A stretch of DNA of 32,000 nucleotides from an uncultured Gemmatimonadota bacterium (GCA_964394085.1 CAYMWF010000014.1:27167-59166); one strand, 5' to 3'; positions 12,940 to 27,101 are shown, numbered from the stretch's first letter. Program-made: numbers and translations. Notes: generated from the sequence alone by a model not told the origin.

Positions 12940-13593
12940 ATGAAAATGAGAAAATTAATCACCACCTGCTTCGCCCTGATCCTTCTCCTTCCGAATGTAT
13001 CTTTGTGTGCCAACGGCGATTATGAAATTCAGGGTGGAGACAGGCTTTATATCGAAGTAATGGATCATACGGAATTGAGTAAAAGCGTAACAGTAAGACC
13101 GGATGGCAAAATATCTTTTCCTCTCATCGGGGATATCTATGCCCGCGGTTTCACTGTAACGCACCTGCAGGAAGTGCTGACGGAAAAACTCGCAGATTAT
13201 GTCCGAGGTACTCACGTCACGGTATTCGTCGAAAGATTTTTCTTCAGCCATGTGCTCGTACTCGGTGCCGTAAAGAATCCAGGCCCGCTTGAAATTTTCG
13301 GTCCTGTGGATGTCATCCAGGTACTGGGAATGACCGAATCGGAAGACAGGGAACCGAAGCGCATCAGGATAATTAGGAAAAATGGAGATGTTACGACGGT
13401 GAGCCTCACCTCCGTGTGGAAGCAGGGGGGTGTGATACAGCACCGGGAAGATTTGCTTCTGCATCCCGGGGATACAATGATCGTTTACGAGAATACGAAA
13501 CTCACCTGGGAGATGATCATGCGTGTAATTATTCTAACGACATTCTTTATGACTGCCTACAATTTCACATATACAGTTACAACCCGCGATTAA
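12940..13593 (+). CDS. polysaccharide export protein (Wza/OPX-like: Poly_export plus SLBB)
   Basis: Signal peptide 'MKMRKLITTCFALILLLPNVSLC'. Poly_export pattern: 'YEIQGGDRLYIEV...VTVRPDGKISFPLIGDIYARGFTVTHLQEVLTEKLADYV'. An SLBB-like segment follows ('VLGAVKNPGPLEI') and there is a C-terminal hydrophobic helix. The ATG at 12940 is preferred over the TTG at 12919. Confidence 0.85.
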   Translation: MKMRKLITTCFALILLLPNVSLCANGDYEIQGGDRLYIEVMDHTELSKSVTVRPDGKISFPLIGDIYARGFTVTHLQEVLTEKLADYVRGTHVTVFVERFFFSHVLVLGAVKNPGPLEIFGPVDVIQVLGMTESEDREPKRIRIIRKNGDVTTVSLTSVWKQGGVIQHREDLLLHPGDTMIVYENTKLTWEMIMRVIILTTFFMTAYNFTYTVTTRD

Positions 13594-13622
13594 ATTGAAC
13601 TTCAGATCAGAGGTGAAAAACC

Positions 13623-15758
13623 ATGACAGAAAAGACTGACAGAATGAAGAGAATCAAGGAGTTCCTGCCGGAACGAGGTGGAGAGGCGGCATCCGCGCCT
13701 AAAGATACACCTTTCGACATCCGGCAGTACTACTCGGTTCTCATGCGGCGGAAAGGGCTGATACTCCTGGTAACGGCACTTTTCTGTTTCGTATCGATTT
13801 ACCATTCACTCAGCAATGTTCCGGTATACCAGTCCACGGCAAAGCTGCTCCTCGAGTCCGGGGGCGGGCTGGTGGTTCTCAACCAGAAGCTGACCTATGT
13901 GCCGGGGTACTCGATGAACACATTCATCGAAATTATGAAATCTCCGATGGTGCTCGGTAAAATAATCGATCGGCTGAACCTGGATATGACACCCAAGCAG
14001 CTGTTGAACCATGTCCAGTACCAGCCGAATCAGAATTCGAACATTCTGAGCATATCAGTAACCCATCCTGATGACAGGTTGGCCAAGGGCATTGCCCAGA
14101 CCGCAGCCGAGCTTGCCGTGGAAGAAGTCAATAACATCTATAACGCTTCCACTACCAACGCATACAATACAATCAATGAGCAGCTCGAAATAACCAAGGT
14201 CCAGTTGATGAAGGCCGAGGAGAGCATCAAAGAATTCCTCGCATCGAAGGGTTACAGGAATATCAAGAGCGAAACGACTGCCAAGCTCTCCCGTCTGGCC
14301 AACCTTACCTCCCGATACAACGATTCAAGGGTCGAGATGAACACCAATTCCAAAGTGCTGGAATACCAGCGGACGACACTTGAAGAAACGCCGGATCTCA
14401 TTCTTAAGGAACAGACGATTACAACGCCAATCCAGATGGAAATCGTCAAGCTGGAGACCGAGCTGGCCAAGAGTCGGATAAGCTATTCCGAAAACCACCC
14501 CAAGGTGCAGTCTCTCGTCGGTAATATCGAAGCCCTGAGAGAGCTGATCGGAAACGGAGTCGAAGATGATCTGACCGTGGAAACGGTTGGTGAAAATCCG
14601 GTGAAGCAAGCACTGCTGAATGAGATTAACCTGCGGAAGTCCGAACAGGTGCAGTCTCATGCAAGACAGACTGAGCTTGCACGGTTGATCGATGAGGTCG
14701 AGTCAAGGTTGAGAAACGCACCTTCCGATGAATTGACCCTCGCCCGCCTCGAGCGTGAGAAAAAAGGACTCGAGAATACGTACTTCTCGCTTCTGTCTAA
14801 ATTCGAGGAAGCGAGAATGATGAAAGATACATCCGCCGGCAACCTGAGCATTCTCGAAGAGGCGGATCTCGTCGGCCCCATCCGTGACAATATTTTCGTC
14901 AACCTGCTGTACGCACTTATCCTCGGGCAGATCATCGGAGGGATCCTGGCGGTAATAATCGACACCCTCGACCCGAGAATCAAGTTCAGCTCCAAGATCG
15001 AGGATTCTCTCGGGATACCCGTCCTGGGTCTCATTCCCGATTTGAGAGAAGATGAGCGTTTCGTAAGGTTCGATTCACCGAAATCGAGGATTACGGAAGC
15101 TTACCATATAATAAAATCGAACATCAATAACGCCATGCCGAAAGACCGGGCATGGACCCTCATGGTGACAAGCGCCTTCCAGGGTGAAGGCAAAACGCTC
15201 ATGAGCACCAACCTGGCTACCGCGATGGCGCTTACCGGCAAACCGACCGTACTTATCGATGCGGATATGAGACGCACCTATCTCCATGAGCGCTTTAAAC
15301 TTCAAAAACATGGTGGTCTGTCGGAATATCTCTTAGGCGAGGCAGGGCTCGAAGATATACTGAAAGACACGGATGTCCCCAGCCTGAAAGTCATTACAGC
15401 GGGCAGAAAACCTCAGAATCCGGCTCAATTGCTCCATTCACCCGAGATAACCAGGCTCTTCGAAGATCTGATCAAGCGAGGTTACTATGTAATAGTCGAC
15501 TCACCGGCTCTTCTGCCGATTGTCGATTCATCCATCATGGCAACATACGTAGACGGTGTAATACTGGTATTCAAAGAAGAATCCACCAGGAAATACACCG
15601 CACAGAAGACGATTGAAAGAATGGTTCGGATCGGTGCGAACATCACCGGCTCGATTTTAAACCAGGCTTCAATCAAGGGATACGGTTACTATTACTACTA
15701 CGGATACCGGTATGGGTACGACTATGGGTATTCCGAAAAAATGGAAACCGGCGCCTGA
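13623..15758 (+). CDS. polysaccharide co-polymerase / bacterial tyrosine autokinase (Wzc/GumC/ExoP-like PCP-2a)
   Basis: Two TM segments ('GLILLVTALFCFVSIY', 'FVNLLYALILGQIIGGILAVII') flank a long coiled-coil periplasmic region (Wzz/GNVR-like). The cytoplasmic P-loop has Walker A 'SAFQGEGKT' (GEGKT at 15183-15197), A' 'VLIDADMRR' and B 'YVIVDSPALLP'. The C-terminal tyrosine cluster is 'YGYYYYYGYRYGYDYGY' (15681-15731). Confidence 0.9.
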   Translation: MTEKTDRMKRIKEFLPERGGEAASAPKDTPFDIRQYYSVLMRRKGLILLVTALFCFVSIYHSLSNVPVYQSTAKLLLESGGGLVVLNQKLTYVPGYSMNTFIEIMKSPMVLGKIIDRLNLDMTPKQLLNHVQYQPNQNSNILSISVTHPDDRLAKGIAQTAAELAVEEVNNIYNASTTNAYNTINEQLEITKVQLMKAEESIKEFLASKGYRNIKSETTAKLSRLANLTSRYNDSRVEMNTNSKVLEYQRTTLEETPDLILKEQTITTPIQMEIVKLETELAKSRISYSENHPKVQSLVGNIEALRELIGNGVEDDLTVETVGENPVKQALLNEINLRKSEQVQSHARQTELARLIDEVESRLRNAPSDELTLARLEREKKGLENTYFSLLSKFEEARMMKDTSAGNLSILEEADLVGPIRDNIFVNLLYALILGQIIGGILAVIIDTLDPRIKFSSKIEDSLGIPVLGLIPDLREDERFVRFDSPKSRITEAYHIIKSNINNAMPKDRAWTLMVTSAFQGEGKTLMSTNLATAMALTGKPTVLIDADMRRTYLHERFKLQKHGGLSEYLLGEAGLEDILKDTDVPSLKVITAGRKPQNPAQLLHSPEITRLFEDLIKRGYYVIVDSPALLPIVDSSIMATYVDGVILVFKEESTRKYTAQKTIERMVRIGANITGSILNQASIKGYGYYYYYGYRYGYDYGYSEKMETGA

Positions 15759-15789
15759 TTTATTTGAGTTCTCGATATTACACCTGTTA

Positions 15790-15819
15790 GTTCCGGTTTC
15801 CTTCGGTGGAAACCGGAAC
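15790..15819 (+). terminator. perfect 12-bp hairpin between the Wzc-like gene and the FliG-like gene (possible attenuator, partial terminator or RNA-processing site)
   Basis: GTTCCGGTTTCC (15790-15801), loop TTCGGT, GGAAACCGGAAC (15808-15819). It is the strongest stem I saw in the window. No U-tract follows, so its function is uncertain. Confidence 0.4.
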
Positions 15820-15942
15820 AAGTTATTGATAAAAGAACAGGGTCACACCAAATTGGGATTCGTCGCAAAGCGATCAAACAATTGAATTGAATACGAAATT
15901 TCTGTAGGATGCGGTTTGATCGCTGAATTCACGGGAGGAAAT

Positions 15943-17508
15943 ATGAATAGAAGGGACTGCCTGCGTATTATTTTTTCACTGGTCATACTCTCATTTACGG
16001 TCTTGACAGCGACAGCCCAGATGGTGAGCGGCGGTTCGGATGACGATAACCGGCAGGCTGAAAGAGGCAAACTCGGTCTTTTCGAAGCCGAGTATGAAGG
16101 CGAGTTCGGCCGGCAGCTCGAATCCAAATTGATGAAGCTTACCGGGAGTGAATATTTTCTGGTGCAGGTGGATATCTCACTCTATGCAGAACAGGACAGA
16201 GATCGTTTCGGCGGCATGACCTATGATAACAGGGCGTCCTTGCCCGGATTACCCGTATCACGATCGACGGAGGTGGATGAAGGCAGCGAAAATTATTTCA
16301 TCTCATCGATGAATATTCAACTTTTTTACGATGAGAGCATTGATCAGGAAATTCTAGCCGAAGCCAGAAAATGGGTGCCTTACTGGCTTCCTACGGACAA
16401 TGCCAATCTCGAATTCATTCCCGTGACCTTTAACAGAGAACTCGGCTATGCGGACCGTCTGAAAATGTTTTTCATGTCACTGGCCGGAGTCGTTTTCGCA
16501 CTGCTTCTTCTCCTGGGTTTGTTCCTTCTATTCAAAATGATTTCGAAAACTTTGAAGTCCGCGCTCAGGGAAGGGAGTGACATGGACGCCAGTCTGATCA
16601 GTGAAACAGAAGGTGGTGGAGCGCCGACGCCCGGATCCGGGGTCGGCGGCGATCAGGGGGATGGTGATGGGGCTGGTGGAGCCGGTTCGTCTTCACTCAG
16701 TGATCTGGCCGAGCAGCTGGGTGACGCCGAATCCCTTGACGGATTATCGGGAATGATGGGTGGCGGACCCCAAAAATCGCAAGCGAGGAAATCGAAAGTG
16801 AGACCATTACACGAAAAATCTTTTGCGTTTCTGCTGAACTTGTCAGACGAGCAGATACTGAGCCTTATAAGAGAGTTACCCCCACAGCACATCGCGGTTG
16901 TACTGTCAAGTTTTATTCCCGAACGGGCCAGCGCTCTTTTCAGGATGCTGGACAGCGATCAGCAAATGACGATTGCCGAGCTTCTTGCAGATGAAGATAC
17001 GATACAGAGCGAAGAGCTTCTCCAATTAAAGGAACTGCTGCAGGAGCGTCTCCGCAGCAGGTTCATAGAACCGATGGAAGTGAGCAGGGGAGGAGAAGGC
17101 TTTTTCTCTTCACTTACTTCGCATCTCGACCTGGGTCTGCTCTCCAATCTCGTGGATAATCTCAAAGATCGCAACCCGGACCTTGCGCGGCAGATACGAA
17201 AGAAGCTGTTTCTGTTTGAGGATACTGTACAGCTCGAGGATAATGCGATAAGGATGATAATACAGGCAATCGATTTGAAGGTGCTCGCATTGGCATTGAG
17301 AGATTCGTCACTGGAGGTTAAGGATAAATTCATCCGGAACTGTTCGGACAGGGTACAGGACATAATCGAGGAAGAGCTTGAGATAAGTGTCTCTCAGCCG
17401 AATGAACTTGCCGAGCTTGCGCAAATTGAAGTCGTTAAACTAGTGAGGAATCTTGCAGAGGCCGGCCGGATCGAACTTCCGGTCGCCAATGAATTACCAA
17501 TTCAGTAA
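15943..17508 (+). CDS. membrane-anchored FliG-like protein: N-terminal TM/signal, ~150-aa extracytoplasmic domain, TM helix, Gly/Asp-rich linker, then FliG middle and C-terminal (torque) domains
   Basis: ATG at 15943 behind GGGAGG. TM1 'CLRIIFSLVILSFTVLTATA' follows 'NRRD'. TM2 'MFFMSLAGVVFALLLLLGLFLLF' (about 16465-16542) is followed by 'KMISKTLK', consistent with the positive-inside rule. Linker: 'GGGAPTPGSGVGGDQGDGDGAGGAG'. FliG_M-like: 'LIRELPPQHIAVVLSSFIPERASALFRML'. FliG_C-like: 'LFLFEDTVQLEDNAIRMIIQAIDLKVLALALRDSSLEVKDKFIRNCSDRVQDIIEEELE...QIEVVKLVRNLAEAGRIEL'. The last segment aligns position by position with the E. coli FliG C-terminus as I remember it. Confidence 0.8.
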   Translation: MNRRDCLRIIFSLVILSFTVLTATAQMVSGGSDDDNRQAERGKLGLFEAEYEGEFGRQLESKLMKLTGSEYFLVQVDISLYAEQDRDRFGGMTYDNRASLPGLPVSRSTEVDEGSENYFISSMNIQLFYDESIDQEILAEARKWVPYWLPTDNANLEFIPVTFNRELGYADRLKMFFMSLAGVVFALLLLLGLFLLFKMISKTLKSALREGSDMDASLISETEGGGAPTPGSGVGGDQGDGDGAGGAGSSSLSDLAEQLGDAESLDGLSGMMGGGPQKSQARKSKVRPLHEKSFAFLLNLSDEQILSLIRELPPQHIAVVLSSFIPERASALFRMLDSDQQMTIAELLADEDTIQSEELLQLKELLQERLRSRFIEPMEVSRGGEGFFSSLTSHLDLGLLSNLVDNLKDRNPDLARQIRKKLFLFEDTVQLEDNAIRMIIQAIDLKVLALALRDSSLEVKDKFIRNCSDRVQDIIEEELEISVSQPNELAELAQIEVVKLVRNLAEAGRIELPVANELPIQ

Positions 17509-17529
17509 ATAACCGGAGGATAGTCGCCG

Positions 17530-17739
17530 ATGATCACGATTCATAGGCTGGACGGAACAGAACTGGTTTTAAATGCGGAACTTATCGAGAATCTGGAACG
17601 AAAGCCCGACACAATTATCACCTTGACCAACGGCAAACGCCTGGTTGCGAAAGAAAGTGTCGAGGATATTTGTGATCTGGTGATTGAATACAGGCGAACG
17701 GTTTACAGCCGGAAGAGAGATAAGGATGCAGGGGTCTGA
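17530..17739 (+). CDS. flbD: FlbD family protein (flagellar-operon small protein)
   Basis: 69 aa. 'MITIHRLDGTELVLNAELIENLERKPDTIITLTNGKRLVAKESVEDICDLVIEYRR' matches the FlbD family pattern (RLNG..., ..IE..PDT.ITL.NGKK..V.ESV.EV...V.EY). GGAGGA RBS upstream. It sits directly upstream of motA-motB, as in spirochaete and Firmicute flagellar operons. Confidence 0.88.
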   Translation: MITIHRLDGTELVLNAELIENLERKPDTIITLTNGKRLVAKESVEDICDLVIEYRRTVYSRKRDKDAGV

Positions 17740-17757
17740 AAAAACAGGAGCTGAGTT

Positions 17758-18504
17758 GTGGGCGTATTCAGTTTATTAGCGTTAATGATTGGGTTTGTTA
17801 TCGTAGCGGGATCGATCGTACTGAACGGAGATCCGCAATGGTTCATTTTCTGGCCGGGAGTGGCGATTACCATGGGCGGCACAGCCTGTGTGGCGATAGT
17901 AGCATATCCGATTCGCCAGATCGGGCACTCGGCGAGAGTGTTTTTCCAGATGGCCGCCAGGAGGAATCCAAAACCCGAAAAGGCTTATGATCGACTCCTG
18001 GATATAGCCCGAACGGCCCGTCGCGAAGGATTCGTCGGCCTTTCGCTGGATGAGAAAAAAGACAGTAATCTGCAATTCCTCCAGACGGGAGTAGAACTTC
18101 TGGCGGATGGAGCCGATCCCGACCAGATTACCGCGATTATGGATTCCAAGTCGGATATGGTTTCGGAGGAATACCTGGTAGGTGAAAAACTTTTTACGAC
18201 GCTGGGAACCGTCGCACCGATGTGGGGCCTGCTCGGGACCGTTATCGGTCTCATCCTCATGTTGAATAATGTCGATAATCCTGAATTGATTCCCAAATCG
18301 ATGGCGATCGCCATGGTGACGACTTTTTACGGCATTTTTCTTGCGGCTCTTTTTATGATTCCTATTGCCATGAAATTCAAAAGCTTCAGAGAGAAGGATG
18401 AAAAAATCCGGGAGATGATTATAAGAGGGGTTCTCTCAATCCAGTCCGGCGACAGTTCCAGGATCGTGCAGGAGAAACTCGAATCTTACAACCTTCTGAG
18501 GTAG
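17758..18504 (+). CDS. motA: MotA/PomA-type stator channel subunit (MotA_ExbB family)
   Basis: GTG start behind AGGAG. Four TM segments. The cytoplasmic loop is charged ('ARTARREGFVGLSLDEKKD'). TM3 is 'LGTVAPMWGLLGTVIGLILML' and TM4 is 'AMVTTFYGIFLAALFMIPIAMKF', each with the conserved Pro. At 248 aa it has no long C-terminal tail. Confidence 0.88.
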   Translation: MGVFSLLALMIGFVIVAGSIVLNGDPQWFIFWPGVAITMGGTACVAIVAYPIRQIGHSARVFFQMAARRNPKPEKAYDRLLDIARTARREGFVGLSLDEKKDSNLQFLQTGVELLADGADPDQITAIMDSKSDMVSEEYLVGEKLFTTLGTVAPMWGLLGTVIGLILMLNNVDNPELIPKSMAIAMVTTFYGIFLAALFMIPIAMKFKSFREKDEKIREMIIRGVLSIQSGDSSRIVQEKLESYNLLR

Positions 18505-18509
18505 GAATA

Positions 18510-19256
18510 ATGAGCACAAGAGGTCTTTATACTCAAAAGAAGCGAGCTGGCTCCGGAACCGCCCTCCCACCTTGGATTACAACCTACAGCGATCTCATCA
18601 GCCAGCTACTGGTTTTCTTTATCATGTTGTTTTCTCTGACAAAAGCCGGCAGGATCGTAGAGCTCCAGGAATCCCTCAAGGAGTTCCAGGAAAAAGTCGA
18701 AATGGGATACCTTGTCAAGGACGGTGAGAAGCCGGGTGAAGTGGTGCTGAGGCTGGAGGCGGAGGTCCTTTTCGATTCCGGAAAGGCTCTGTTGAAGGAG
18801 ACCGCCCGACCTGCGCTCGACAATGTATATGAAATCATCCTGGAAGACATAGATCGCAGGGGGGCCGCAACCATCAGAGTGGAGGGGCATACCGATACGA
18901 GGCCCATTCACACAGTGAGGTTCCCCTCCAACTGGGAGTTGTCGGCGGCAAGAGCCATCAGTGTCGTCAGGTATTTCCTGGCAAAGGGGCTTTTTACGCC
19001 GGATAATATGCAGGCGGTGGGCTTCGGAGAGTTCAAACCGATAGCTCCCAACGACACCTACGCGAACATGCAGAAGAACCGCCGGGTAGAGATCAAGATC
19101 ATCAGAACCAATATCACTACCGAGGATGTCGCATTTCCAACCCTTACCGAGGAAGGAATTATCACTGTCGATACACTCGGACAGGAGTTGGTAATTCCGC
19201 ATATCGATAAGAAATTCGAGGAATTTTTAGGGGAAATCGATACTGTCGAACAGTAA
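18510..19256 (+). CDS. motB: MotB-type stator subunit with OmpA-like peptidoglycan-binding domain
   Basis: The single TM 'PPWITTYSDLISQLLVFFIMLFSL' carries the conserved proton-binding Asp (YSDL). OmpA_C-like region: 'RVEGHTDTRPI...SNWELSAARAISVVRYF...NRRVEIKI'. It starts 5 nt after the motA stop. Confidence 0.9.
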   Translation: MSTRGLYTQKKRAGSGTALPPWITTYSDLISQLLVFFIMLFSLTKAGRIVELQESLKEFQEKVEMGYLVKDGEKPGEVVLRLEAEVLFDSGKALLKETARPALDNVYEIILEDIDRRGAATIRVEGHTDTRPIHTVRFPSNWELSAARAISVVRYFLAKGLFTPDNMQAVGFGEFKPIAPNDTYANMQKNRRVEIKIIRTNITTEDVAFPTLTEEGIITVDTLGQELVIPHIDKKFEEFLGEIDTVEQ

Positions 19257-19281
19257 AAAGATCTAATGGTATTGGGGAAAT

Positions 19282-22200
19282 ATGCAAACCAAAAGCAAAA
19301 CTTTACTAATCTTCACAACCATTTTTATTCTTGCTGCCCACCATGCCGTTCTCGCTCAGCAGGCGGAGTTTGATTTCAGCAGGTGGCCCGGAACCGTAAA
19401 CCTGGAAGGAGAACACTTGGGGGATCTCCTCGGTTCCACCGTCGTTGCCGGTGATTTTGACGGTGACGGGTGGCAGGATCTTGTTATCGGAGCACCCCAA
19501 TCTGATGAGCCGGGCAAAGCTTCCTGCGGCAAGGTATACGTTATTTACGGAAAAGCGGGATACGAGGGGAGCTACGTGTTAGACGATCCGTTCGTCGATC
19601 ATTTGACCCTCTCGGGTGATACAGGGAATGATGAACTCGGCAATGTTATCGATGTATGGGATGTGGAAGGAAACGGATCGGATGATCTGCTGCTGGGGGC
19701 TCCAAAGGCGGATGTCTCCGGTAAGGTTGATGCAGGAAAGATTTATCTGTTATACGGGGGATCAAGGACGACAGGGGAGTTCAATATCGGTGAATTTCCA
19801 GGTATGCTCCGGGTTGATGGAAACGAGGCTGCGGATCAGTTCGGCGCGTCGGTTGCAGCCGGTGATTTTACCGGTGATCTTGAAACCGATTTGATTGTGG
19901 GCGCTCCGCTTGCGGAGCCAGCCGGTGAAGCGTCTACAACGGGCATCGCCTATCTTCTGAAAGGACCGCTTGGAAGCGGAGTGAAAACTCTGGATGCACT
20001 TGCATCGATGGTAGTTTACGGCGAACAGACCGATGATCGCCTCGGTTCGCAGGTTCTCGGGCTTAATTTAAACGACACCGGTCCGGATGATATGGTCTTT
20101 GCCGCTCCCAACGCGGATCTGCCCGACGAGCAGAGGGAGCGAGGCATTCTTTACGTAATGTTCGGCTCAGGATCACTGCCCGCGGAGGTTGAATTGGCCC
20201 AGGGGGATTCCGCTGATGTGACGATGGCCGGAAATGCAGGCTCTTCCCGTTTCGGAACCGCACTCGATGGGGGTGATATAGACGGGAACGGGTACGATGA
20301 GATTGTAGCCGGGGCACCGGGCGGCGGAAGCGTATTGGTAATCGAAGGACGGTCGAGCTTCGACCCTTTCATCGATTTGACCTATTCCAGTCCCGCTCTG
20401 TCAATATCCGGCAGTGATTCTCTCGGGTCGGTGCTTCAGGTAAATGATTACACCGGGGATGGTCTGGCTGACATCTTTTTAGGTACACCTGCCACCGCTC
20501 CGAGCGGGAAAGCATACCTGGTAAACGGCGGTCCGTTGACAGGGGCATCAGGCTCGGTTCCCGATCTGGGCCGCTGTATTTTCAGCGGAGACAGAACCGG
20601 CGATAGACTTGGTCAGGCTGTCTGCCTGGGTGATTTTGTTAAAGACGGCAAACCCGATATGATCATCGGCGCTCCCCAGGCTGAGGGAGAAGAAGGTACA
20701 GATGCCGGGCTCGTTTATATCGTGAAGGGCGGGACGCCATACTTGACCGATCTTTATCCAGGATACGGGGAGAGTGGAATACCAGCGGATTTCGACATGG
20801 AATTCTGGATTCGGGATGACCTTACTGCAAGTGAAGAGGACATCAATCTCAACACATTGGAAGTATATCTTTCGGGGTATACCTTCACTGCAGCGGATTT
20901 CGACACCACGGGCTCAGTTGGTGCGGAGGCGATTCACGTGCTTCTCGATATAGTGCCCGGCACCTTCCTGCCCAATACAGCCGTCGACGCTGAGATAACT
21001 GGATTCGACAAGGCCGGTAACGAGATCCCGACGACACAGTACGTTTTCCATATGCTGAATGATTTCACGGGGCCTTGGCTCGAGAACATTGCTCCTCCGG
21101 ATTCTTCGAAATACCAGCCGGTTCAGCCGGAAATCGCCTTCAGCATTCTCGACGCCGCCAGCGGTGTGGATCTCGATGAAGTCTGGATGCATGTCGCCTA
21201 CGATACAACGGCGGGCATGCCCGTTACCGACACCTTCTTCCCTAAAACGGATACGTTGATCGTGGTTGACACCATTTCGGTATCCCCACTGGGATACAGA
21301 ATCAGCTATATACCGCCTGAGCCCTTTATGATGGGCGACCAGATACATGTAGAAGTCGAAGGAAAAGACTTCGCGGGTTTTCCTCTGCAGGATCCCCGGA
21401 AGTGGCTCTTTACCACGGTGGACAATGATACTTTACCGCCCATCCTACAGAATGAATTTCCCGCGAACGGCGCTTCCGGAGTAGAGGTCCAGGCTGTAAA
21501 TGTGGATGGCTTTCTGGTAGAGATCTATGATGAGCAAACAGGGGTTAATCCCGCATCCATAGATGTCACCAGGACTTACGAAGCTATTTCAGGAGACACG
21601 ACAGTATCGATCACAGATTTGATCGAAATCGGGAGAATTGATGCGAATCTTTATACTGTCTCGTATCGTCCGACCGGACAGGAAGGTGATCCTCAGTTTC
21701 AGTATGGCGAAACAGCCAGGTTCAATGTACGTGCTTTTGATCTTGCGTTCGAGCCGAACCTGATGGATACGACATATTCATTCATCCTCGAAACCGACAT
21801 AAATCCGCCGGAGATCACCGGACGGCAGCCGAACCCTGACCTGGTCGATTCGATATCGGTGTTCTCAGAAATCAAGTTCGATATCACCGATGACAAGAGC
21901 GGAGTCGATGACTCTACGATCGTTTTCAAGGTGAATAATGAAGAAATAGACATTGAGGACCTGATCTCTCCGAATGAATACCTGGGATATACGATCAGAT
22001 ACCCGAACATCCCTGACTCCCTGGAACAGGTGCCGCTCCCAGAAGATACGGTCACCGTTTCCGCCTGGGCCGCCGATAACGTCGGCAACGAGATGGTGCT
22101 GCCGGAAGAATGGAGTTTTATCGCCGTTCCGGATTCAAGAACGCCCAGGATGACATTTTCGATGGAAATGCTTCTGGTGGAGCAGTCCGACACTATAGAA

Positions 22201-22881
22201 GTCTGGGAGACAATCCCGCCTTCCGATTACCTCCTCAATAAAATCCCGCAGGACTCGATCCGTATCTCCTTTACCGTAACGGATACTATTGATGAATGGG
22301 AATCAGGTATCGACCTGTCGACGATGCTGATAATGATGGAGCTTGAGAATACCGGTCCGCCCCCGATCATTCTTCTCAGTGAGGGTGAGGAAACCCATAC
22401 CGGGTACAAAACCGGCACCATGGATATCGACGAAACTGAATCACCCGGTTTATATAACGTTAGTTTCGAACCGGACCGTCTTTCAATTGCCGAAGAGGTG
22501 ACACTGTCCGTCTCTGTCAGGGATAAGGGCGGAATCCAGGTGGTGGAGCAGTTACGGTTTAATATCAGTTACGGCGGAAGGCTCAATAAACCGTTCCCTC
22601 CTATAATCACTCCGGCTCATGGCTCAGATCCGAATAACCGAACGACAATCCTTTTCCTTGGTGAGGGTTCGGGAACATTTACGCTTTACAACCTTGAAGG
22701 ATACGCGGTTTACAGCGAGGAGAACATACCTCCTCTCAGCGGCTCCCTGTACAAAGTGACATGGGGCGGAGAATACGGCGCACCGGGGAGCAGCCAGAGA
22801 ATCGTACCGGCCGGTCTTTATGTATATCAATTCAAATCGAGCTCAAAGGTTTATAACGGCACAATCGCCGTAGCGCGTTAA
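19282..22881 (+). CDS. large secreted protein: signal peptide, seven FG-GAP repeats (integrin-alpha-like beta-propeller), about five tandem Ig-like modules, and a T9SS-type/FlgD-Ig-like C-terminal domain
   Basis: Signal 'LLIFTTIFILAAHHAVLAQQ'. Seven repeats end in ...GAP: GDFDGDGWQDLVIGAP, WDVEGNGSDDLLLGAP, GDFTGDLETDLIVGAP, LNDTGPDDMVFAAP, GDIDGNGYDEIVAGAP, NDYTGDGLADIFLGTP, GDFVKDGKPDMIIGAP (about 19399-20736). The module motif 'D..SG(V/I)D..(S/T)(I/L)' recurs roughly every 110-135 aa (about 20.8-22.4 kb). The C-terminal ~80 aa are 'FTLYNLEGYAVYSE...LYKVTWGG...VPAGLYVYQFKSSSKVYNGTIAVAR'. Confidence 0.8.
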   Translation: MQTKSKTLLIFTTIFILAAHHAVLAQQAEFDFSRWPGTVNLEGEHLGDLLGSTVVAGDFDGDGWQDLVIGAPQSDEPGKASCGKVYVIYGKAGYEGSYVLDDPFVDHLTLSGDTGNDELGNVIDVWDVEGNGSDDLLLGAPKADVSGKVDAGKIYLLYGGSRTTGEFNIGEFPGMLRVDGNEAADQFGASVAAGDFTGDLETDLIVGAPLAEPAGEASTTGIAYLLKGPLGSGVKTLDALASMVVYGEQTDDRLGSQVLGLNLNDTGPDDMVFAAPNADLPDEQRERGILYVMFGSGSLPAEVELAQGDSADVTMAGNAGSSRFGTALDGGDIDGNGYDEIVAGAPGGGSVLVIEGRSSFDPFIDLTYSSPALSISGSDSLGSVLQVNDYTGDGLADIFLGTPATAPSGKAYLVNGGPLTGASGSVPDLGRCIFSGDRTGDRLGQAVCLGDFVKDGKPDMIIGAPQAEGEEGTDAGLVYIVKGGTPYLTDLYPGYGESGIPADFDMEFWIRDDLTASEEDINLNTLEVYLSGYTFTAADFDTTGSVGAEAIHVLLDIVPGTFLPNTAVDAEITGFDKAGNEIPTTQYVFHMLNDFTGPWLENIAPPDSSKYQPVQPEIAFSILDAASGVDLDEVWMHVAYDTTAGMPVTDTFFPKTDTLIVVDTISVSPLGYRISYIPPEPFMMGDQIHVEVEGKDFAGFPLQDPRKWLFTTVDNDTLPPILQNEFPANGASGVEVQAVNVDGFLVEIYDEQTGVNPASIDVTRTYEAISGDTTVSITDLIEIGRIDANLYTVSYRPTGQEGDPQFQYGETARFNVRAFDLAFEPNLMDTTYSFILETDINPPEITGRQPNPDLVDSISVFSEIKFDITDDKSGVDDSTIVFKVNNEEIDIEDLISPNEYLGYTIRYPNIPDSLEQVPLPEDTVTVSAWAADNVGNEMVLPEEWSFIAVPDSRTPRMTFSMEMLLVEQSDTIEVWETIPPSDYLLNKIPQDSIRISFTVTDTIDEWESGIDLSTMLIMMELENTGPPPIILLSEGEETHTGYKTGTMDIDETESPGLYNVSFEPDRLSIAEEVTLSVSVRDKGGIQVVEQLRFNISYGGRLNKPFPPIITPAHGSDPNNRTTILFLGEGSGTFTLYNLEGYAVYSEENIPPLSGSLYKVTWGGEYGAPGSSQRIVPAGLYVYQFKSSSKVYNGTIAVAR

Positions 22882-22898
22882 CAACGGGGAAAATCAGG

Positions 22899-24542
22899 AT
22901 GTTTTTCAAGGCTCGGAACCAGCTCATACTCTCTGTTCTGATCATCGTCGCTGCAGCTTTGCCTTCCGAGGCTTCTTTCGAGAGGAGGGCAGGAATCCGT
23001 GCGCTGGGTATGGGGGGCGCTTTTACCGGAGTCGCCGATGATGCTTCAGCCCCTTACTGGAATCCTGCCGGAATTGGGCGGTTTTCAGCGGTTGAATTCA
23101 GAGCCGAGTATGCCCGGCCGTTTACCGGAGCTGCAAACATTGATATCAACGATGTGGATTTTGCTTTCGCGTATCCTTTCGGTAACTGGGGAACCATGCT
23201 GGGTGGTTACGACTATCTCGGTAACTACCTGTACAATGAAGGAGTCGGGATTTTTTCATACGGCTTAGGTCTTCTCAAGCGTAAACCGCTTCTTGTCGGA
23301 TTTAATGCGCGTCTTTACAGTGTCAATTACAGCGTCGGGGGGCTTTCGTCCGTGGATGCAGGTCAGGTTAAGAAGGATCTCCTGTTTTCGAATTATGGAT
23401 TCGGTGAATCGGCTTTCGGCTTTGATCTGGGTGCTTTATACAGGTACCGGAATAAATGGACGGTCGGAGTTTCACTGTTCAATCTGAATGCACCATCGAC
23501 GAGCCTGAATCCGGACGATCAAGACGAACTTCCTCTCACTGGCCGGATAGGGATATCGTATTTATTCAAAAGGCTCACGGGAGCACTCGACCTGGAATAC
23601 AGGGATCAGTACTTCATGGACAGCAAGCCTGTATATATTCATACAGGCGTTGAGCAGGAGCTGTTCAGGAAACGACTGCACCTTCGGGCCGGTGCTTTCG
23701 GTATGGTTTCCCCCGAATTCTCACCCCGCCTTACAGCCGGATTCAGCTACAACTTCCTCAGAAGGGAATGGGTCGAATTCGGCACGGATCTTCTTGACGG
23801 CAAGGAATACCAGTATCTTAAACGGCTCTGGCTCACTCTCGAATACGGCGCGGCGTTCCCAGTTGCATCAGGTTCCTTTGAAGGCTCTTTCGGAGATCAG
23901 CGTATCGGTCTCAAAATCACATTCGACACTGCCAAGGAATACAAAAAATACATGACGCGCCAGGAACTGGAAGAAATGCTGAAAGACAAGAAGATAGAGG
24001 TCGCTCTCGATATCACCGAGTCGCTTCTCGAAAAGGAATTCGAGATCATCGAAGGTGAGAAAGAGATGATCCAGCAGGAACTCCAGGAGAGGTTCGACCA
24101 GGAACGGCAGGAGCTCATGCAAGACCTCGAGATGCAGCAGGAGCTGGAACTCGAGCAAAAACGTATAGAGCAGGATCTATTGACTGCAGGACAGCAGGAA
24201 GAGCTGGAAGAACAGATTCGTCAGTTGCAGGAGATTATCAGGCAGCAGCAGCGGGCGATCGAAATGAGCACCAAGACGAATGAAGCGCTTCAGCATCTCA
24301 TGCTTGCCGTCAGATATTATTTTCTGCAGCAGTACGGGGAGGCTGAAAAGGAATGTTATATAGCCATCGAGCTCGCCCCTCATATCGCACTGGCATACAA
24401 GCGTCTGGGATCGATTTACTACAAGCAGGGCAGGTTCAGCGATGCCAGCGCCGCATGGAAGAAGGCGCTTGATATCGATCCGACCGATGAAGAACTGCAA
24501 AATTGGCTTGAAAGATTCAGGAAAGGGAAAAATCTCGAATGA
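22899..24542 (+). CDS. outer-membrane beta-barrel (PorV/PorQ-like N-terminal signature) fused to an E/Q-rich coiled coil and C-terminal TPR repeats
   Basis: Signal 'LILSVLIIVAAALPSEA'. 'RALGMGGAFTGVADDASAPYWNPAGIG' is followed by alternating aromatic/Gly-rich strands to about aa 343. The coiled coil 'QQELQERFDQERQELMQDLEMQQELELEQKRIEQD...' spans about 23934-24269. The TPR-like tail is 'AVRYYFLQQYGEAEKECYIAIELAPHIALAYKRLGSIYYKQGRFSDASAAWKKALDIDP'. Confidence 0.7.
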   Translation: MFFKARNQLILSVLIIVAAALPSEASFERRAGIRALGMGGAFTGVADDASAPYWNPAGIGRFSAVEFRAEYARPFTGAANIDINDVDFAFAYPFGNWGTMLGGYDYLGNYLYNEGVGIFSYGLGLLKRKPLLVGFNARLYSVNYSVGGLSSVDAGQVKKDLLFSNYGFGESAFGFDLGALYRYRNKWTVGVSLFNLNAPSTSLNPDDQDELPLTGRIGISYLFKRLTGALDLEYRDQYFMDSKPVYIHTGVEQELFRKRLHLRAGAFGMVSPEFSPRLTAGFSYNFLRREWVEFGTDLLDGKEYQYLKRLWLTLEYGAAFPVASGSFEGSFGDQRIGLKITFDTAKEYKKYMTRQELEEMLKDKKIEVALDITESLLEKEFEIIEGEKEMIQQELQERFDQERQELMQDLEMQQELELEQKRIEQDLLTAGQQEELEEQIRQLQEIIRQQQRAIEMSTKTNEALQHLMLAVRYYFLQQYGEAEKECYIAIELAPHIALAYKRLGSIYYKQGRFSDASAAWKKALDIDPTDEELQNWLERFRKGKNLE

Positions 24543-25753
24543 CGGATCCCCCTGTCAGAGAGCACAGTTATTTAGCCAGGAATTACTCGAAAATCCAAAA
24601 AGGTGTATACCTGCTGTTATTACTGGCCCTGAGCGTGGCTGTTATACTGGTGATTTTCGCACTTATATCCTCTCCGGAGCAGAAATCTTATCCATTCAGC
24701 CCCGATAGTGATGAAGTTGCCAAGATGGTCTCGGTAACTGTCACGGGCTCCATCCACAGACCGGGAACATTCGAATTACCGGAAGGTTCGACTGTGTATG
24801 ATGCCCTGGTACTGGCGGGTGTCAAGAATACCGCGGACCTTGGAAACCTCGTTCTCGAACAACGCTTTGCCAGCAGTGAGAATTTTATCCATGTCGACGA
24901 AATAGAAAGGGATGAAGATGCCGCTGTAGACATGAATCCGTATATCGTACCGTTGATTGACAGTGGCGAAGACAGTTTAGAATCGAACAAAGGTAGTGAT
25001 ACCGGGGATGAAACTTCCGACATAGCCTCGTTAAACGTCGTCAATATACTTTATGTCGGAGCTCCTCATGTATTCCTTCTGGCATCTGTCGCTCCGGCGA
25101 CCGGAAACGGATCGTTTCTGGTGATCCCGCCCCAGACCCGAATTTCTCATCCCAGGTCCGGAGCCGGCAATCAGCTCAGCCACCTTTACCTTCTCGGCGG
25201 CGCCGGCTCGATTGTCGCATATGTCGAACGGCTCCTGCAATTACCTGTTCACTACTACGTGGAAGACAAGCAGGAAACGTTCATTACAACCGTAGAGCTG
25301 ATCGGAGGATTCCGAGTCAAGCTTGATAATGAAATAGCGGAGCATCTCCAAAAGGAGCCGGGATATCAAACCCTCACCGGGATGGACAGTTTTCGATTCA
25401 TTCAGTATTTCGATATATCCTCCAATGCGGATACTTACAGGAGAAGCACGCAGACCCGTATGTTGAGGTGGCGCCGATTCCTGGATTCCGTCTACGCTAA
25501 TTTTCGTGGCATGGACTGGCGTCAGACCATTCTCCTTGCAAGGCACATCATTCTCAACCTCGAGACGAACCTGGCACTGCAGGATGTTTTATATCTTGCC
25601 AGGAGCGCCAGAACCCACGGAGGGTTCAACTTCGACTTCCACCTGATTCAGGGTTCATACCAGAAGATCGGTGATAAGGTCTATTGGGAAATCGATGACA
25701 GCGTCGCCAGGATCGAGGGCTTGAAGCTTATTGAAATGGTTCTGAATCGGTGA
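24539..25753 (+). CDS. membrane-anchored SLBB-domain protein with divergent LytR-CpsA-Psr (LCP)-like C-terminal domain
   Basis: The ATG overlaps the upstream TGA (ATGA). TM 'VYLLLLLALSVAVILVIFALI'. SLBB pattern 'VSVTVTGSIHRPGTFELPEGSTVYDALVLAGV'. An acidic linker follows. LCP-like layout: 'NILYVG...FLLASVAPATGNGSFLVIPPQTRI...LYLLGGAGSIVAYVERLLQLPVHYYVEDKQETFITTVELIGGFRVKLD'. The usual Arg-containing motifs are not obvious. Confidence 0.6.
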   Translation: MTDPPVREHSYLARNYSKIQKGVYLLLLLALSVAVILVIFALISSPEQKSYPFSPDSDEVAKMVSVTVTGSIHRPGTFELPEGSTVYDALVLAGVKNTADLGNLVLEQRFASSENFIHVDEIERDEDAAVDMNPYIVPLIDSGEDSLESNKGSDTGDETSDIASLNVVNILYVGAPHVFLLASVAPATGNGSFLVIPPQTRISHPRSGAGNQLSHLYLLGGAGSIVAYVERLLQLPVHYYVEDKQETFITTVELIGGFRVKLDNEIAEHLQKEPGYQTLTGMDSFRFIQYFDISSNADTYRRSTQTRMLRWRRFLDSVYANFRGMDWRQTILLARHIILNLETNLALQDVLYLARSARTHGGFNFDFHLIQGSYQKIGDKVYWEIDDSVARIEGLKLIEMVLNR

Positions 25754-27002
25754 ACTCGACATCCCGAATCTGAGCATCCTGTTCCTTCTCGCTTTTTTTA
25801 GCCCCCAGGTAGATAACAATAGCGACCATTCCGATTATTCCTATCCCCTGGAGGATTACGATCAGGGCGCCGATCGGGTCGAGGTTGTCGAGGAGGGTTG
25901 CATTTATCCCAAGGCAGAATGTCAGCAGATAGATGAATTGCACGGCCTGCGGCTGCGTCAATCCCAGACGGACCAGCTGATGCGAGAGGTGGTTCTGATC
26001 CCCGAGGAATATGGGAGCTCCCTGTTTCAGCCTGACGTAGATTACGGAAAAAGTATCGAAAAGAGGCAGCGACATGATGAGAACGGGCATGAGCGCCGGA
26101 AAGACGAAAGAACTTTCCGGTGTTGCGAAAGTGATCAGAATGGATGCCGCGGCCAGGATGAAGCCGATAAAGAGGCTGCCGGCATCACCGAGAAAAATCG
26201 TCGACGGATAGACATTGTATCTGTAGAATCCGAGCAGCGCTCCCCCCAACGCAGATAGAAGCAGAGCCACAAAGAACTGACCGTGATGGATTGTCACAAA
26301 TGCCAAGATTCCCGTTACGATCAATGCCACCCCCGAAGAAAGCCCATCCATATTATCAAGCAGATTGAACGAATTCGTAATACCGACGATCCATGTGATA
26401 CTGATCACGATGTTAACGAGGTCGAATAATGGTACACCGCTGAAAAAAGATGTTCTGATTCCCGCTGCTACCAGTATTGATGCTGCGATTACCTGGCCGA
26501 CCAGCTTCAACCTGGCCGGGAAGTAAACACCATACAGATCATCGATAAGGCCGAGCAGGACGATCAGTGTGCTCCCTATCACCAGGGCAAAAAGCTGAAT
26601 CTTGACATACCTTACACCTTGGAACAATTCGATCGTGTGAGCCATGCTCCCGTCTAACCAGCCGGTGGGAAGAATGTAGAAGAACAGGATACAGGAAAGG
26701 GGTAAGAGACAAGCCGGACAAAAGACAGCCAGCCCCCCGAGTAAAGGTTTCACGCTTACGTGAACTTTTCTCTCTCCGGGATGGTCCACTATATCGAATC
26801 TAAAGGCGATCCACTTGCAAAGTGGAATGAGCATCAGGGAGAATATGAGCGAAATGAGGAATACGCCCGTAAAGACAATAATCTGTTCAAGATCTCTCGG
26901 CATTACACTTAATAACGGAATCAAAACCTGAATTATCAAGGATTTTCCGTTATTCTTTCTGCTGAGGACCGACATGGTCCCGGAGACGCAAACCGATACC
27001 AT
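25728..27002 (-). CDS. polyprenyl-phosphate HexNAc-1-phosphate transferase (MraY/WecA/WbpL family, Pfam Glycos_transf_4)
   Basis: Polytopic membrane protein with about 10-11 hydrophobic segments. Motifs: 'GLIDDLYG' (DD) and 'NSFNLLDNMDGLSSG' (NxxNxxDGxDGL). Its location in a glycan locus rather than a dcw cluster argues for a WecA-like initiating enzyme. The start is uncertain (alternative ATG at 26903). The 3' end overlaps the convergent upstream gene by 26 nt. Confidence 0.85.
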   Translation of the reverse strand: MVSVCVSGTMSVLSRKNNGKSLIIQVLIPLLSVMPRDLEQIIVFTGVFLISLIFSLMLIPLCKWIAFRFDIVDHPGERKVHVSVKPLLGGLAVFCPACLLPLSCILFFYILPTGWLDGSMAHTIELFQGVRYVKIQLFALVIGSTLIVLLGLIDDLYGVYFPARLKLVGQVIAASILVAAGIRTSFFSGVPLFDLVNIVISITWIVGITNSFNLLDNMDGLSSGVALIVTGILAFVTIHHGQFFVALLLSALGGALLGFYRYNVYPSTIFLGDAGSLFIGFILAAASILITFATPESSFVFPALMPVLIMSLPLFDTFSVIYVRLKQGAPIFLGDQNHLSHQLVRLGLTQPQAVQFIYLLTFCLGINATLLDNLDPIGALIVILQGIGIIGMVAIVIYLGAKKSEKEQDAQIRDVEFTDSEPFQ

Positions 27003-27101
27003 ATGTTTCTGAACGTGTCAACAAAGTGCAAAACCTTTGTCCCCGGAACAGAATTATGGTAGTTCTCTCATCGAATCACAAGGGAGCGTCCGGACTCCGG
27101 T

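What the first reader, a model, noticed from the sequence alone, without database searches (positions are those of the whole stretch)
19282..22881. 1199-aa surface protein: exactly seven Ca-loop FG-GAP blades, five Ig-like modules and a T9SS/FlgD-Ig-type tail, encoded directly after motB
SEEN:
- There is a signal peptide.
- Seven repeats have DxDxDGxxD-like loops and end in (I/L/F)xGAP. Seven is the number needed for an integrin-alpha-type beta-propeller.
- Five ~110-135-aa modules then follow, each containing 'D..SG(V/I)(D/N)..(S/T)(I/L)'. They centre near nt 20840, 21165, 21550, 21905 and 22310.
- The ~80-aa C-terminus ('TLYNLEGYAVY...VTWGG...VPAGLYVYQFKSSSKVYNGTIAVAR') has the beta-sandwich pattern shared by T9SS C-terminal sorting domains and the FlgD Ig-like domain.

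ESTABLISHED:
- T9SS CTDs target cargo such as the SprB gliding adhesin, and PorV shuttles CTD cargo.
- FG-GAP propellers are ligand-binding or adhesive modules.

INFERENCE:
- Sitting between the stator genes and a PorV-like barrel, this is the best candidate for the cargo or moving part of the proposed machine (adhesin or fibre).
- If the tail is truly FlgD-like rather than a T9SS CTD, that would be a further flagellar-derived piece.
Basis: partly seen in the sequence, partly recalled or inferred. Interest (0 to 1): 0.62.

Follow-up and report, generated by a model that had tools for sequence, protein, structure and literature searches.

The report
Integrin-like surface adhesin beside motor genes
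This gene encodes a large secreted protein with an integrin-like head, a five-unit stalk and an outer-membrane sorting tail, and in every relative found it sits between a spare set of flagellar motor genes and an outer-membrane barrel, so it is probably the surface-exposed load of an undescribed rotary machine.

Summary
ORF 19282-22881 encodes 1199 aa:
- a Sec signal peptide;
- seven FG-GAP blades (integrin-alpha-like propeller, confident AlphaFold2 model);
- five mutually homologous Big_5-like Ig modules;
- a ~100-aa C-terminal beta-sandwich.

The tail is neither a type A T9SS sorting domain nor FlgD-derived. In this protein every model scores below threshold. In six orthologues the same tail passes the Pfam threshold for CHU_C, the type B T9SS sorting domain, while FlgD_ig never does. 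Profile-profile comparison agrees.

The gene directly downstream encodes a PorV/PorQ/PorP-superfamily barrel with a coiled coil and TPR end. It is the only PorP/SprF Pfam hit in the genome. That order is the known pairing of a type B cargo with its cognate shuttle.

The genome has SprA, PorU and 52 type A cargoes. GldL and GldM were not found, but that search had no positive control.

In 8 of 8 informative loci, from at least three lineages, the orthologue follows a FliF/FliG-fusion gene, motA and motB. The polysaccharide genes are not conserved.

Most likely it is a T9SS-exported adhesin held on its barrel and coupled to that rotor-stator. Movement is inferred only.

The scan had already noted similar cassettes on other DNA.

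The parts
19282..22881 (+). Whole gene, 1199 aa: signal peptide, propeller, five Ig-like modules, C-terminal sorting domain
   Evidence: A 78%-identical orthologue of the same length lies in the same gene order.
19282..19356 (+). Sec signal peptide, aa 1-25, predicted cleavage AVLA|QQ, no lipobox
   Evidence: Direct reading. AlphaFold2 gives a lone N-terminal helix at aa 2-22 with low pLDDT.
19369..20736 (+). Seven-blade FG-GAP (integrin-alpha-like) beta-propeller, aa 30-485
   Evidence: Pfam FG-GAP 2.5e-36. PDB integrin alpha5/alphaIIb by sequence, E 1e-12. AlphaFold2 pLDDT about 80-90 with 7 x 4 strands. Foldseek integrin alpha E 5e-21, TM 0.64-0.66 against headpiece chains.
20737..22146 (+). 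Ig-like modules M1-M4 (aa 486-599, 600-719, 720-843, 844-955), Big_5-like beta-sandwiches
   Evidence: hhalign pairwise probability 98-99%. pLDDT 75-85, all-beta. Orthologues carry PF13205 Big_5.
22147..22581 (+). Module M5 (aa 956-1100), a divergent copy with insertions
   Evidence: hhalign 94-97% to M1-M4. 21 bits to an HMM built without it. Poorly modelled, pLDDT about 40-55.
22582..22881 (+). C-terminal sorting domain (aa 1101-1199, ends ...GTIAVAR) plus stop codon; a divergent type B (CHU_C) T9SS CTD
   Evidence: This protein scores 14.5 bits CHU_C and 15 bits TIGR04183. Orthologues score CHU_C 31.9-49.5 bits, above the cutoff of 27. hhalign to CHU_C tails: 97.1% alone, 99.7% as a family. 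hhalign to the genome's own type A CTDs: 91.2% alone, 98.4% as a family. CTD pLDDT 71-92.
22899..24542 (+). Partner gene: outer-membrane barrel of the PorV/PorQ/PorP-SprF superfamily, with a ~110-aa coiled coil and a TPR end
   Evidence: Pfam PorP_SprF 25.2 bits (cutoff 22.3) and TraF_2 28.8 bits. It is the only PF11751 hit in the genome. NCBIfam PorV_fam 51 bits and PorP_fam 21 bits, both below cutoff. Conserved directly downstream in the orthologous loci.
15916..17508 (+). FliF/FliG-fusion rotor-like gene, first gene of the conserved core
   Evidence: FliG_C 1.3e-25 and FliG_M 6.5e-9. Conserved upstream in 8 of 8 informative loci.
17530..19256 (+). flbD (17530-17739), motA (17758-18504), motB (18510-19256)
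   Evidence: FlbD Pfam hit in the orthologous loci.
24539..25753 (+). SLBB + LytR/CpsA/Psr-like gene, overlapping the barrel gene's stop. Present in only some lineages.
   Evidence: Absent in L029 and L063.

Best explanation
The gene encodes a cell-surface adhesin.

**Route to the surface**
- It is exported by Sec.
- It then crosses the outer membrane through the genome's type IX secretion translocon (SprA).
- Its C-terminal type B-like sorting domain directs that step.
- The sorting domain is recognised and then held by the barrel protein encoded directly downstream.

**Shape on the surface**
- The five Big_5-like Ig modules form a stalk.
- The stalk presents the seven-blade, calcium-binding, integrin-alpha-like propeller as the distal ligand-binding head.

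**Link to the motor**
- The adhesin-barrel pair is hard-wired genetically to a FliF/FliG-fusion rotor and a MotA/MotB stator.
- The barrel carries a long periplasmic coiled coil and a TPR end.
- The most likely role of the pair is therefore to be the external load of that ion-driven motor.
- The motor would either drive the barrel-adhesin complex through the outer membrane, as GldLM and the GldK track drive SprF-SprB, or energise the adhesin's release from the translocon.

**Status of each step**
- Shown: the domain architecture, the family of the tail, the presence of T9SS genes and the conserved gene order.
- Inferred: secretion route, anchorage on the barrel and coupling to the motor.
For: **Architecture.**

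**Tail**
- Six orthologous tails exceed the CHU_C gathering score, while FlgD_ig and Por_Secre_tail do not.
- hhalign of the tail family against CHU_C-type tails gives 99.7%, E 1e-26 over 89 columns, including the N-terminal TPNGDG-type motif.
- Against the genome's own type A CTDs it gives 98.4%, E 1e-14 over 76 columns.

**Partner barrel**
- The barrel gene starts 17 nt after the adhesin's stop.
- It is the sole PF11751 hit in the genome.
- Published work shows that type B cargoes need, and stay bound to, a cognate PorP/SprF-like protein that is usually encoded directly downstream (PMC12618676, PMC9143113).
- The SprF C-tail couples the adhesin to the moving GldK track (PMC12635249).

**T9SS genes.** SprA, PorU and 52 type A CTDs are present. 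SprA is also present in G001-G004 and G041.

**Synteny**
- The order FliG-like, (FlbD), MotA, MotB, this protein, barrel-TPR is seen in 8 of 8 informative loci.
- In L029, L063 and L069 the start and stop codons overlap.
- The wza/wzc, LCP and glycosyltransferase genes are absent around P0126, P0153 and P0154, so the core does not depend on them.

**Stalk length.** Module number varies from 5 to 9 between orthologues, as expected for a spacer stalk.
Against: - In this protein itself the tail is sub-threshold for every model: CHU_C 14.5 bits against 27, TIGR04183 15 bits against 23. Its first motif is degenerate (IITPAHGSDPNN where orthologues have TITPNGDG).
- The barrel scores higher against NCBIfam PorV_fam (51 bits) than against PorP_fam (21 bits), and both are below cutoff. 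The 'type B cargo with a PorP-like shuttle' pairing is therefore not clean.
- GldL, GldM and a true GldK were not found, so a canonical T9SS motor is not demonstrated.
- No expression, localisation or interaction data exist.
- Nothing shows that the rotor contacts the barrel. No invariant periplasmic cysteine exists in the FliF/FliG fusion that could pair with the barrel's invariant Cys486.
Confidence: 0.6

Rival explanations
1. The protein is a static, T9SS-exported adhesin or matrix-binding protein of the surface-polysaccharide locus. The neighbouring rotor-stator serves something else, such as energising polysaccharide export or secretion. The adhesin would then be a passenger of the operon and not its load.
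For: In this genome, its 78% relative and the P0020 lineage, the module is embedded among wza, wzc, SLBB-LCP and glycosyltransferase genes. FG-GAP propellers and Ig stalks are common in non-motile adhesins (one search lists thousands).
Against: The polysaccharide genes are absent around P0126, P0153 and P0154, yet the five-gene core is intact and translationally coupled there. The adhesin is never found away from motB in the 8 informative loci.
Confidence: 0.22
2. The tail is functionally a type A-like CTD handled by a PorV-type shuttle. The protein would be cleaved by PorU and either attached to anionic LPS or released, rather than held on a PorP/SprF-like barrel.
For: TIGR04183 is the best NCBIfam hit for this protein's tail (15 bits). 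The barrel scores best against PorV_fam. Distant barrel-TPR homologues (P0186, P0183) are each preceded by a large protein with a type A-like tail: 38-47 bits to the genome's type A HMM against 17-24 bits to type B. PorU is present.
Against: Orthologous tails pass CHU_C and not PF18962. hhalign favours type B both for the family and for this tail alone. The tail was not among the 52 type A hits of the genome.
Confidence: 0.12
3. The protein is a periplasmic structural part of the rotary machine, for example a ring, bushing or tether between peptidoglycan and the outer membrane. Its C-terminal beta-sandwich would act as a FlgD-like Ig domain and not as a secretion signal.
For: A profile of the tail finds FlgD as its best solved structure by sequence (3osv, E 3e-4). 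FlgD_ig gives sub-threshold hits in 4 of 6 orthologues. Beta-propellers occur in periplasmic envelope proteins such as TolB and PorE (own knowledge).
Against: FlgD_ig never reaches its cutoff, whereas CHU_C does. No solved type B CTD exists to compete in the PDB search (PMC12618676). An integrin-like head on a stalk of variable length (5-9 modules) is adhesin-like. Five to nine Ig modules plus a propeller would be too long for a periplasm if extended (own estimate).
Confidence: 0.06

Closest known systems
SprB with SprF of Flavobacterium johnsoniae, and other type B CTD cargo / PorP-like shuttle pairs (Fjoh_3952/3951; PG1035/PorP of Porphyromonas gingivalis)
   Same: Both are large Sec- and T9SS-type surface proteins with a CHU_C/TIGR04131-type tail. 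In both, the cognate barrel gene lies directly downstream. Anchorage is expected on the barrel and not on LPS. The barrel has a periplasmic C-terminal extension that in SprF couples the adhesin to a motor-driven track (PMC12618676, PMC9143113, PMC12635249).
   Different: There is no sequence relation to SprB outside the tail. Here the barrel carries a coiled coil plus TPR instead of a short twin-cysteine tail, and it scores between the PorV/PorQ and PorP families. The adjacent motor genes are a FliF/FliG fusion with MotAB, not GldKLMN. GldL and GldM were not detected. The host is not a Bacteroidota but a small candidate phylum whose relatives NCBI labels Gemmatimonadota.
Integrin alpha subunit ectodomain (alphaV, alpha5, alphaIIb)
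   Same: Both have a seven-blade FG-GAP propeller with DxDxDG-type calcium loops, followed by a leg of beta-sandwich domains. Foldseek gives E 5e-21 over about 1040 columns, and TM 0.64-0.66 against headpiece chains. Sequence E is 1e-12.
   Different: Identity is only 12-19%. There is no beta-subunit partner next to it, no transmembrane helix and no thigh or calf domains; the leg is built of Big_5-like modules. Anchoring is by a T9SS CTD. FG-GAP propellers are very widespread in bacterial surface proteins (30,208 hits), so this is a shared fold and not orthology.
Flagellar hook cap FlgD, Ig-like domain (PF13860)
   Same: Both have a small beta-sandwich with the same strand pattern. Sequence and fold similarity are weak.
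   Different: The score is always below the Pfam cutoff. CHU_C scores 10-35 bits higher in the same tails. The genome's true flagellar genes lie on other contigs.

Membership tests
FG-GAP / integrin-alpha-type beta-propeller | Seven FG-GAP repeats scoring above the Pfam threshold | tested here: met
   PF01839 scores 123 bits against a cutoff of 22.1, over 6 stretches. PF13517 and PF14312 are also above cutoff. The seventh repeat (aa 255-276, FAAP) was read directly.
FG-GAP / integrin-alpha-type beta-propeller | Closed seven-blade fold | tested here: met
   The AlphaFold2 model has pLDDT about 80-90 over aa 30-485 with 28-29 strands. Foldseek top hits are integrin alpha, with TM 0.64-0.66 to headpiece chains. 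This rests on a predicted model, not an experimental structure.
FG-GAP / integrin-alpha-type beta-propeller | Calcium-binding loops D-x-D/N-x-D/N-G-x-x-D | tested here: inconclusive
   The full ligand set is present in blades 1, 2 and 5. Blades 3, 4, 6 and 7 are partial (direct reading). Metal binding cannot be tested with these tools.
Big_5 (PF13205) bacterial Ig-like domain | Score above the Pfam gathering threshold | tested here: not met
   This protein scores 12.7 bits against a cutoff of 23.6. Orthologues P0153, P0154, P0155 and P0156 carry PF13205 in precomputed hits, partly marked 'faint'. The modules are best described as Big_5-like and not as members.
T9SS type B sorting domain (CHU_C PF13585 / TIGR04131) | Domain at the extreme C-terminus scoring above threshold | tested here: inconclusive
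   This protein scores 14.5 bits against a cutoff of 27, which is not met. Six orthologous, alignable tails score 31.9-49.5 bits, which is met. TIGR04131 matches 3 of 6 orthologues, best 1.3e-6. hhalign of this tail alone to CHU_C tails gives 97.1%, E 7e-11.
T9SS type B sorting domain (CHU_C PF13585 / TIGR04131) | Cognate PorP/SprF-like barrel gene directly downstream | tested here: inconclusive
   PF11751 scores 25.2 bits against a cutoff of 22.3, and this is the only such hit in the genome. TIGR03519 scores only 21 bits against a cutoff of 90.6, and PorV_fam scores higher at 51 bits against a cutoff of 90.
T9SS type B sorting domain (CHU_C PF13585 / TIGR04131) | T9SS translocon and processing genes in the genome | tested here: met
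   SprA scores 460 bits summed, PorU 430 bits, and there are 52 type A CTDs.
T9SS type B sorting domain (CHU_C PF13585 / TIGR04131) | GldL/PorL and GldM/PorM motor present | tested here: inconclusive
   TIGR03513, TIGR03517 and PF12081 give no hit in G000, G001, G002, G004 or G041. PF12081 also found nothing in 13 other SprA-positive genomes, so no positive control exists.
T9SS type B sorting domain (CHU_C PF13585 / TIGR04131) | Secretion depends on the T9SS and on the cognate shuttle | not testable with these tools
   This needs genetics or proteomics.
T9SS type A sorting domain (TIGR04183 / PF18962) | Score above threshold | tested here: not met
   TIGR04183 scores 15.2 bits against a cutoff of 23. 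PF18962 gives no hit. The tail is not among the genome's 52 hits. An HMM of the genome's own CTDs gives 12.9 bits.
FlgD Ig-like domain (PF13860) | Score above threshold | tested here: not met
   There is no hit in this protein. Orthologues score 14.5-25 bits against a cutoff of 27.

The most novel reading that the evidence does not exclude
The adhesin-barrel pair is the external working part of a previously undescribed envelope-spanning rotary machine. In that machine a membrane-anchored FliF/FliG rotor and a MotAB stator take the place of GldLM and the GldK/N track. They would propel, or energise the release of, a T9SS-type surface adhesin. This second use of flagellar motor parts would exist alongside a true flagellum in the same cell.
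Probability: 0.3. Interest if true: 0.9.

Novelty: new variant of a known kind. Interest (0 to 1): 0.66.

Why it matters
Taken alone, the protein is an ordinary kind of bacterial adhesin: an FG-GAP head, an Ig stalk and a T9SS tail.

What is unusual is its fixed genetic partnership:
- a cognate T9SS-type barrel on one side;
- a flagellar-type rotor and stator on the other;
- this arrangement recurs in several uncultured lineages and is independent of the polysaccharide genes.

If the coupling is real, flagellar torque-generating parts have been recruited to move or export a surface adhesin. That would link the flagellar motor and the Bacteroidota gliding/T9SS machinery, which are currently treated as unrelated motors.

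It would also give a concrete function to the 'rotor proteins without a filament' noted in surveys of flagellar gene loss (PMC12199754).

For annotation, the result shows that very divergent type B sorting domains can be missed by single-sequence model scans but recovered through orthologues.

Tried and rejected
1. A word-based homologue search with aa 490-1199 found only the protein itself and one 78% relative.
2. The exhaustive representative search was swamped by giant FG-GAP proteins (30,208 hits). Only five collinear relatives could be picked out.
3. Single-sequence scans of the tail against Pfam and NCBIfam gave only sub-threshold hits, and an HMM of the genome's own type A CTDs gave a similar result. 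This was resolved only through orthologues.
4. The Foldseek search of the M5+CTD model gave nothing with E below 0.003. It returned generic beta-sandwiches, including a T9SS NucA CTD, the RgpB CTD and FlgD, and does not discriminate between them. M5 itself is not confidently modelled.
5. The ESM Atlas look-up scored below 0.9 and gives leads only: clusters mixing FlgD_ig, Por_Secre_tail, Big_5 and CHU_C.
6. I looked for a gldKLMN-like operon next to the best GldK-like (FGE-sulfatase) hits. The one candidate neighbourhood tested, on C103, encodes beta-helix proteins and not GldL/M/N.
7. I looked for an invariant periplasmic cysteine in the FliF/FliG fusion that could pair with the barrel's invariant Cys486, by analogy with SprF-GldK. 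There is none.
8. The promoter and terminator scan of 12000-27500 found nothing above chance and no terminator between motB, this gene and the barrel gene.
9. Literature searches found no description of a FliG/MotAB cassette joined to a T9SS-type cargo.
10. 'Remnant of a lost flagellum' is rejected. The genome has FlhA and flagellins on other contigs.


Full report
**1. The gene is real**

The window is G000:C14:27167-59166. The ORF at 19282-22881 (+) is uninterrupted and encodes 1199 aa. It starts 25 nt after the motB stop. The next gene starts 17 nt after its own stop. No terminator-like site lies at either junction, and the scan of 12000-27500 finds nothing above chance. A 78%-identical protein of identical length lies in the same gene order in another metagenome.

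**2. Signal peptide and propeller**

Residues 1-25 read as a Sec signal: basic residues, a hydrophobic run, then AVLA|QQ, with no lipobox.

Seven repeats of the FG-GAP type lie at aa 51-72, 120-141, 188-209, 255-276, 325-346, 382-403 and 444-465. Six end in xGAP or xGTP, and the fourth ends in FAAP.

| Test | Result |
|---|---|
| Pfam FG-GAP | 2.5e-36 |
| Closest solved sequences | calcium-binding blades of integrin alpha5 / alphaIIb, E 1e-12 |
| AlphaFold2, 10-row alignment, aa 30-485 | pLDDT about 80-90, 7 x 4 strands |
| Foldseek, whole model | integrin alpha ectodomains first, E 5e-21 |
| Foldseek, against headpiece chains | TM 0.64-0.66 |

Only about three blades carry the complete acidic ligand set. 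'Seven calcium loops' is therefore generous, but 'seven blades' is right.

**3. The stalk**

The stalk consists of five modules: aa 486-599, 600-719, 720-843, 844-955 and 956-1100.
- Profile-profile comparison relates every pair at 94-99% probability, and none of them to the tail.
- An HMM built from M1-M4 alone recovers M5.
- M1-M4 model as beta-sandwiches at pLDDT 75-85. M5 is poorly modelled.
- This protein does not reach the Big_5 threshold (12.7 bits against 23.6), although orthologues carry Big_5 hits.
- Orthologues have 5 or 9 modules, the behaviour of a spacer stalk.

**4. The tail**

In this protein every model is sub-threshold.

| Model | Score for this tail | Cutoff |
|---|---|---|
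| TIGR04183 (type A) | 15.2 bits | 23 |
| CHU_C PF13585 (type B) | 14.5 bits | 27 |
| PF18962 (type A) | no hit | - |
| PF13860 (FlgD_ig) | no hit | - |
| HMM of the genome's own 52 type A CTDs | 12.9 bits, collinear | - |

The tail aligns end to end with those of the orthologues. They share P-x-I-I-T-P, W-x-G, VPxGLYxYQ and GTxxVAR. Those orthologous tails decide the matter:
- CHU_C scores 31.9-49.5 bits in six of them, all above cutoff.
- FlgD_ig scores 14.5-25 bits, never above cutoff, and PF18962 is essentially absent (summary counts).
- hhalign of the tail family against unrelated CHU_C-bearing tails gives 99.7%, E 1e-26 over 89 columns.
- Against the genome's type A CTDs it gives 98.4%, E 1e-14 over 76 columns.
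- For this tail alone the figures are 97.1% against 91.2%.

The tail is therefore a divergent type B T9SS sorting domain. The FlgD resemblance (PDB 3osv, E 3e-4; weak fold hits) reflects the shared beta-sandwich. It also reflects the lack of any solved type B CTD, as stated in PMC12618676.

**5. T9SS in the genome**

- SprA scores 460 bits summed and PorU 430 bits. There are weaker PorV-like barrels and 52 type A CTD proteins.
- GldL, GldM and GldM_1st were not found here or in four other cassette-bearing genomes.
- GldK hits are generic FGE-sulfatase proteins.
- The same PF12081 search also found nothing in 13 other SprA-positive genomes of other lineages. The negative result has no positive control, and I treat it as inconclusive.

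**6. The partner barrel**

Gene 22899-24542 encodes a barrel followed by a ~110-aa coiled coil and a TPR end.
- Pfam places the barrel just above threshold for PorP_SprF (25.2 bits against 22.3) and for TraF_2.
- It is the only PorP_SprF hit in the whole genome.
- NCBIfam gives PorV_fam 51 bits and PorP_fam 21 bits, both below cutoff. Across seven orthologues both families match all seven.
- I therefore call it a member of the PorV/PorQ/PorP superfamily and leave the subfamily open.

Published work shows three relevant things. Type B cargoes need a cognate PorP/SprF-like protein that is usually encoded directly downstream (PMC12618676). They remain bound to it at the surface (PMC9143113). The SprF C-tail links the adhesin to the moving GldK track (PMC12635249).

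More distant barrel-TPR proteins (P0186, P0183) are also each preceded by a large protein with a CTD, without motor genes. This supports a general cargo-plus-barrel cassette.

**7. Conserved context**

Eight informative loci were examined:
- the window;
- L016;
- G001 and G002;
- P0020;
- P0126;
- P0153, which lies on a 5.4-Mb contig;
- P0154.

All eight have a FliG-like membrane protein, MotA and MotB directly upstream of the orthologue, with FlbD in some. Where sequence continues, the barrel-TPR gene lies directly downstream.

In the P0126, P0153 and P0154 loci the start and stop codons overlap. The wza, wzc, SLBB-LCP and glycosyltransferase genes seen in this window are missing there. The conserved core is therefore five or six genes and does not include the polysaccharide genes.

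The host belongs to a GTDB phylum with only five species genomes. Four of the five have the orthologue, and the fifth is fragmented. NCBI labels the relatives Gemmatimonadota. All six cassette genomes searched have SprA. The genome also has FlhA and flagellins elsewhere. This motor set is therefore a second, paralogous one and not a relic.

**8. Interpretation**

Shown:
- the architecture;
- the family of the tail;
- the T9SS genes;
- the fixed gene order.

Inferred:
- export through SprA;
- capture and anchorage by the adjacent barrel;
- coupling of that barrel to the rotor-stator through its periplasmic coiled coil and TPR end.

The main rivals are a static adhesin whose neighbours serve another purpose, type A-like handling through a PorV-type shuttle, and a periplasmic structural role. 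None is excluded, but each fits the data less well.

**9. Prior notes and literature**

Earlier notes of this scan describe the fusion rotor in this window. They also describe similar rotor-stator-barrel cassettes in Elusimicrobiota, headed by a giant adhesin, and in Bacteroidota and Fibrobacteres. I did not test those.

I found no paper describing such a cassette. One survey notes rotor proteins in genomes without filament proteins and suggests they may have another function (PMC12199754).

Noticed in passing
window 24354-24356 (Cys486 of the barrel-TPR protein, gene 22899-24542): A single cysteine in the TPR end is invariant in 7 of 7 orthologues that are only 27-39% identical. SprF uses C-tail cysteines to bond to GldK (PMC12635249). 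No invariant periplasmic cysteine exists in the FliF/FliG fusion, so any partner is unknown.
   Followed up: partly
G000:C25:20660-22642 and G000:C2:84554-88178: The genome encodes FlhA (911 bits) and at least two flagellins on other contigs. The fliG-like/motAB set in the window is therefore an extra, paralogous set in a probably flagellated organism.
   Followed up: partly
whole genome G000, and G001, G002, G004, G041: SprA and PorU are present but no GldL, GldM or GldM_1st hit was found. The same is true of 13 other SprA-positive genomes from other lineages in the sample. Either these models do not reach beyond Bacteroidota, or these T9SS variants use another energiser.
   Followed up: partly
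L067:7020-11803 and L068:4281-12073: Distant barrel-TPR homologues (P0186, named 'PorV/PorQ family' by NCBI, and P0183) are each directly preceded by a large protein with a type A-like CTD. Each is followed by HAMP-SpoIIE phosphatase and STAS genes. No motor genes are present.
   Followed up: partly
P0159, P0160, P0162, P0163: Proteins of about 1290 aa combine an integrin-beta-type VWA domain (PF00362) with a CHU_C tail. They turned up as distant relatives of the stalk and tail, an integrin-beta-like counterpart to the integrin-alpha-like head seen here. Only a near relative without the PF00362 hit (P0157) was looked up, and it is not next to motor genes.
   Followed up: no
L030:25-4726: Orthologue P0151 stops after three stalk modules (849 aa). 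It is followed 8 nt later by a 714-aa ORF with no Pfam hit. This may be a split or frameshifted copy of the same gene.
   Followed up: no
G000:C25:9591-9785: A 217-aa ORF near flhA gives a near-threshold CHU_C hit (26.3 bits). It is probably the genome's real FlgD, which illustrates the cross-reaction between the FlgD_ig and CHU_C models.
   Followed up: no
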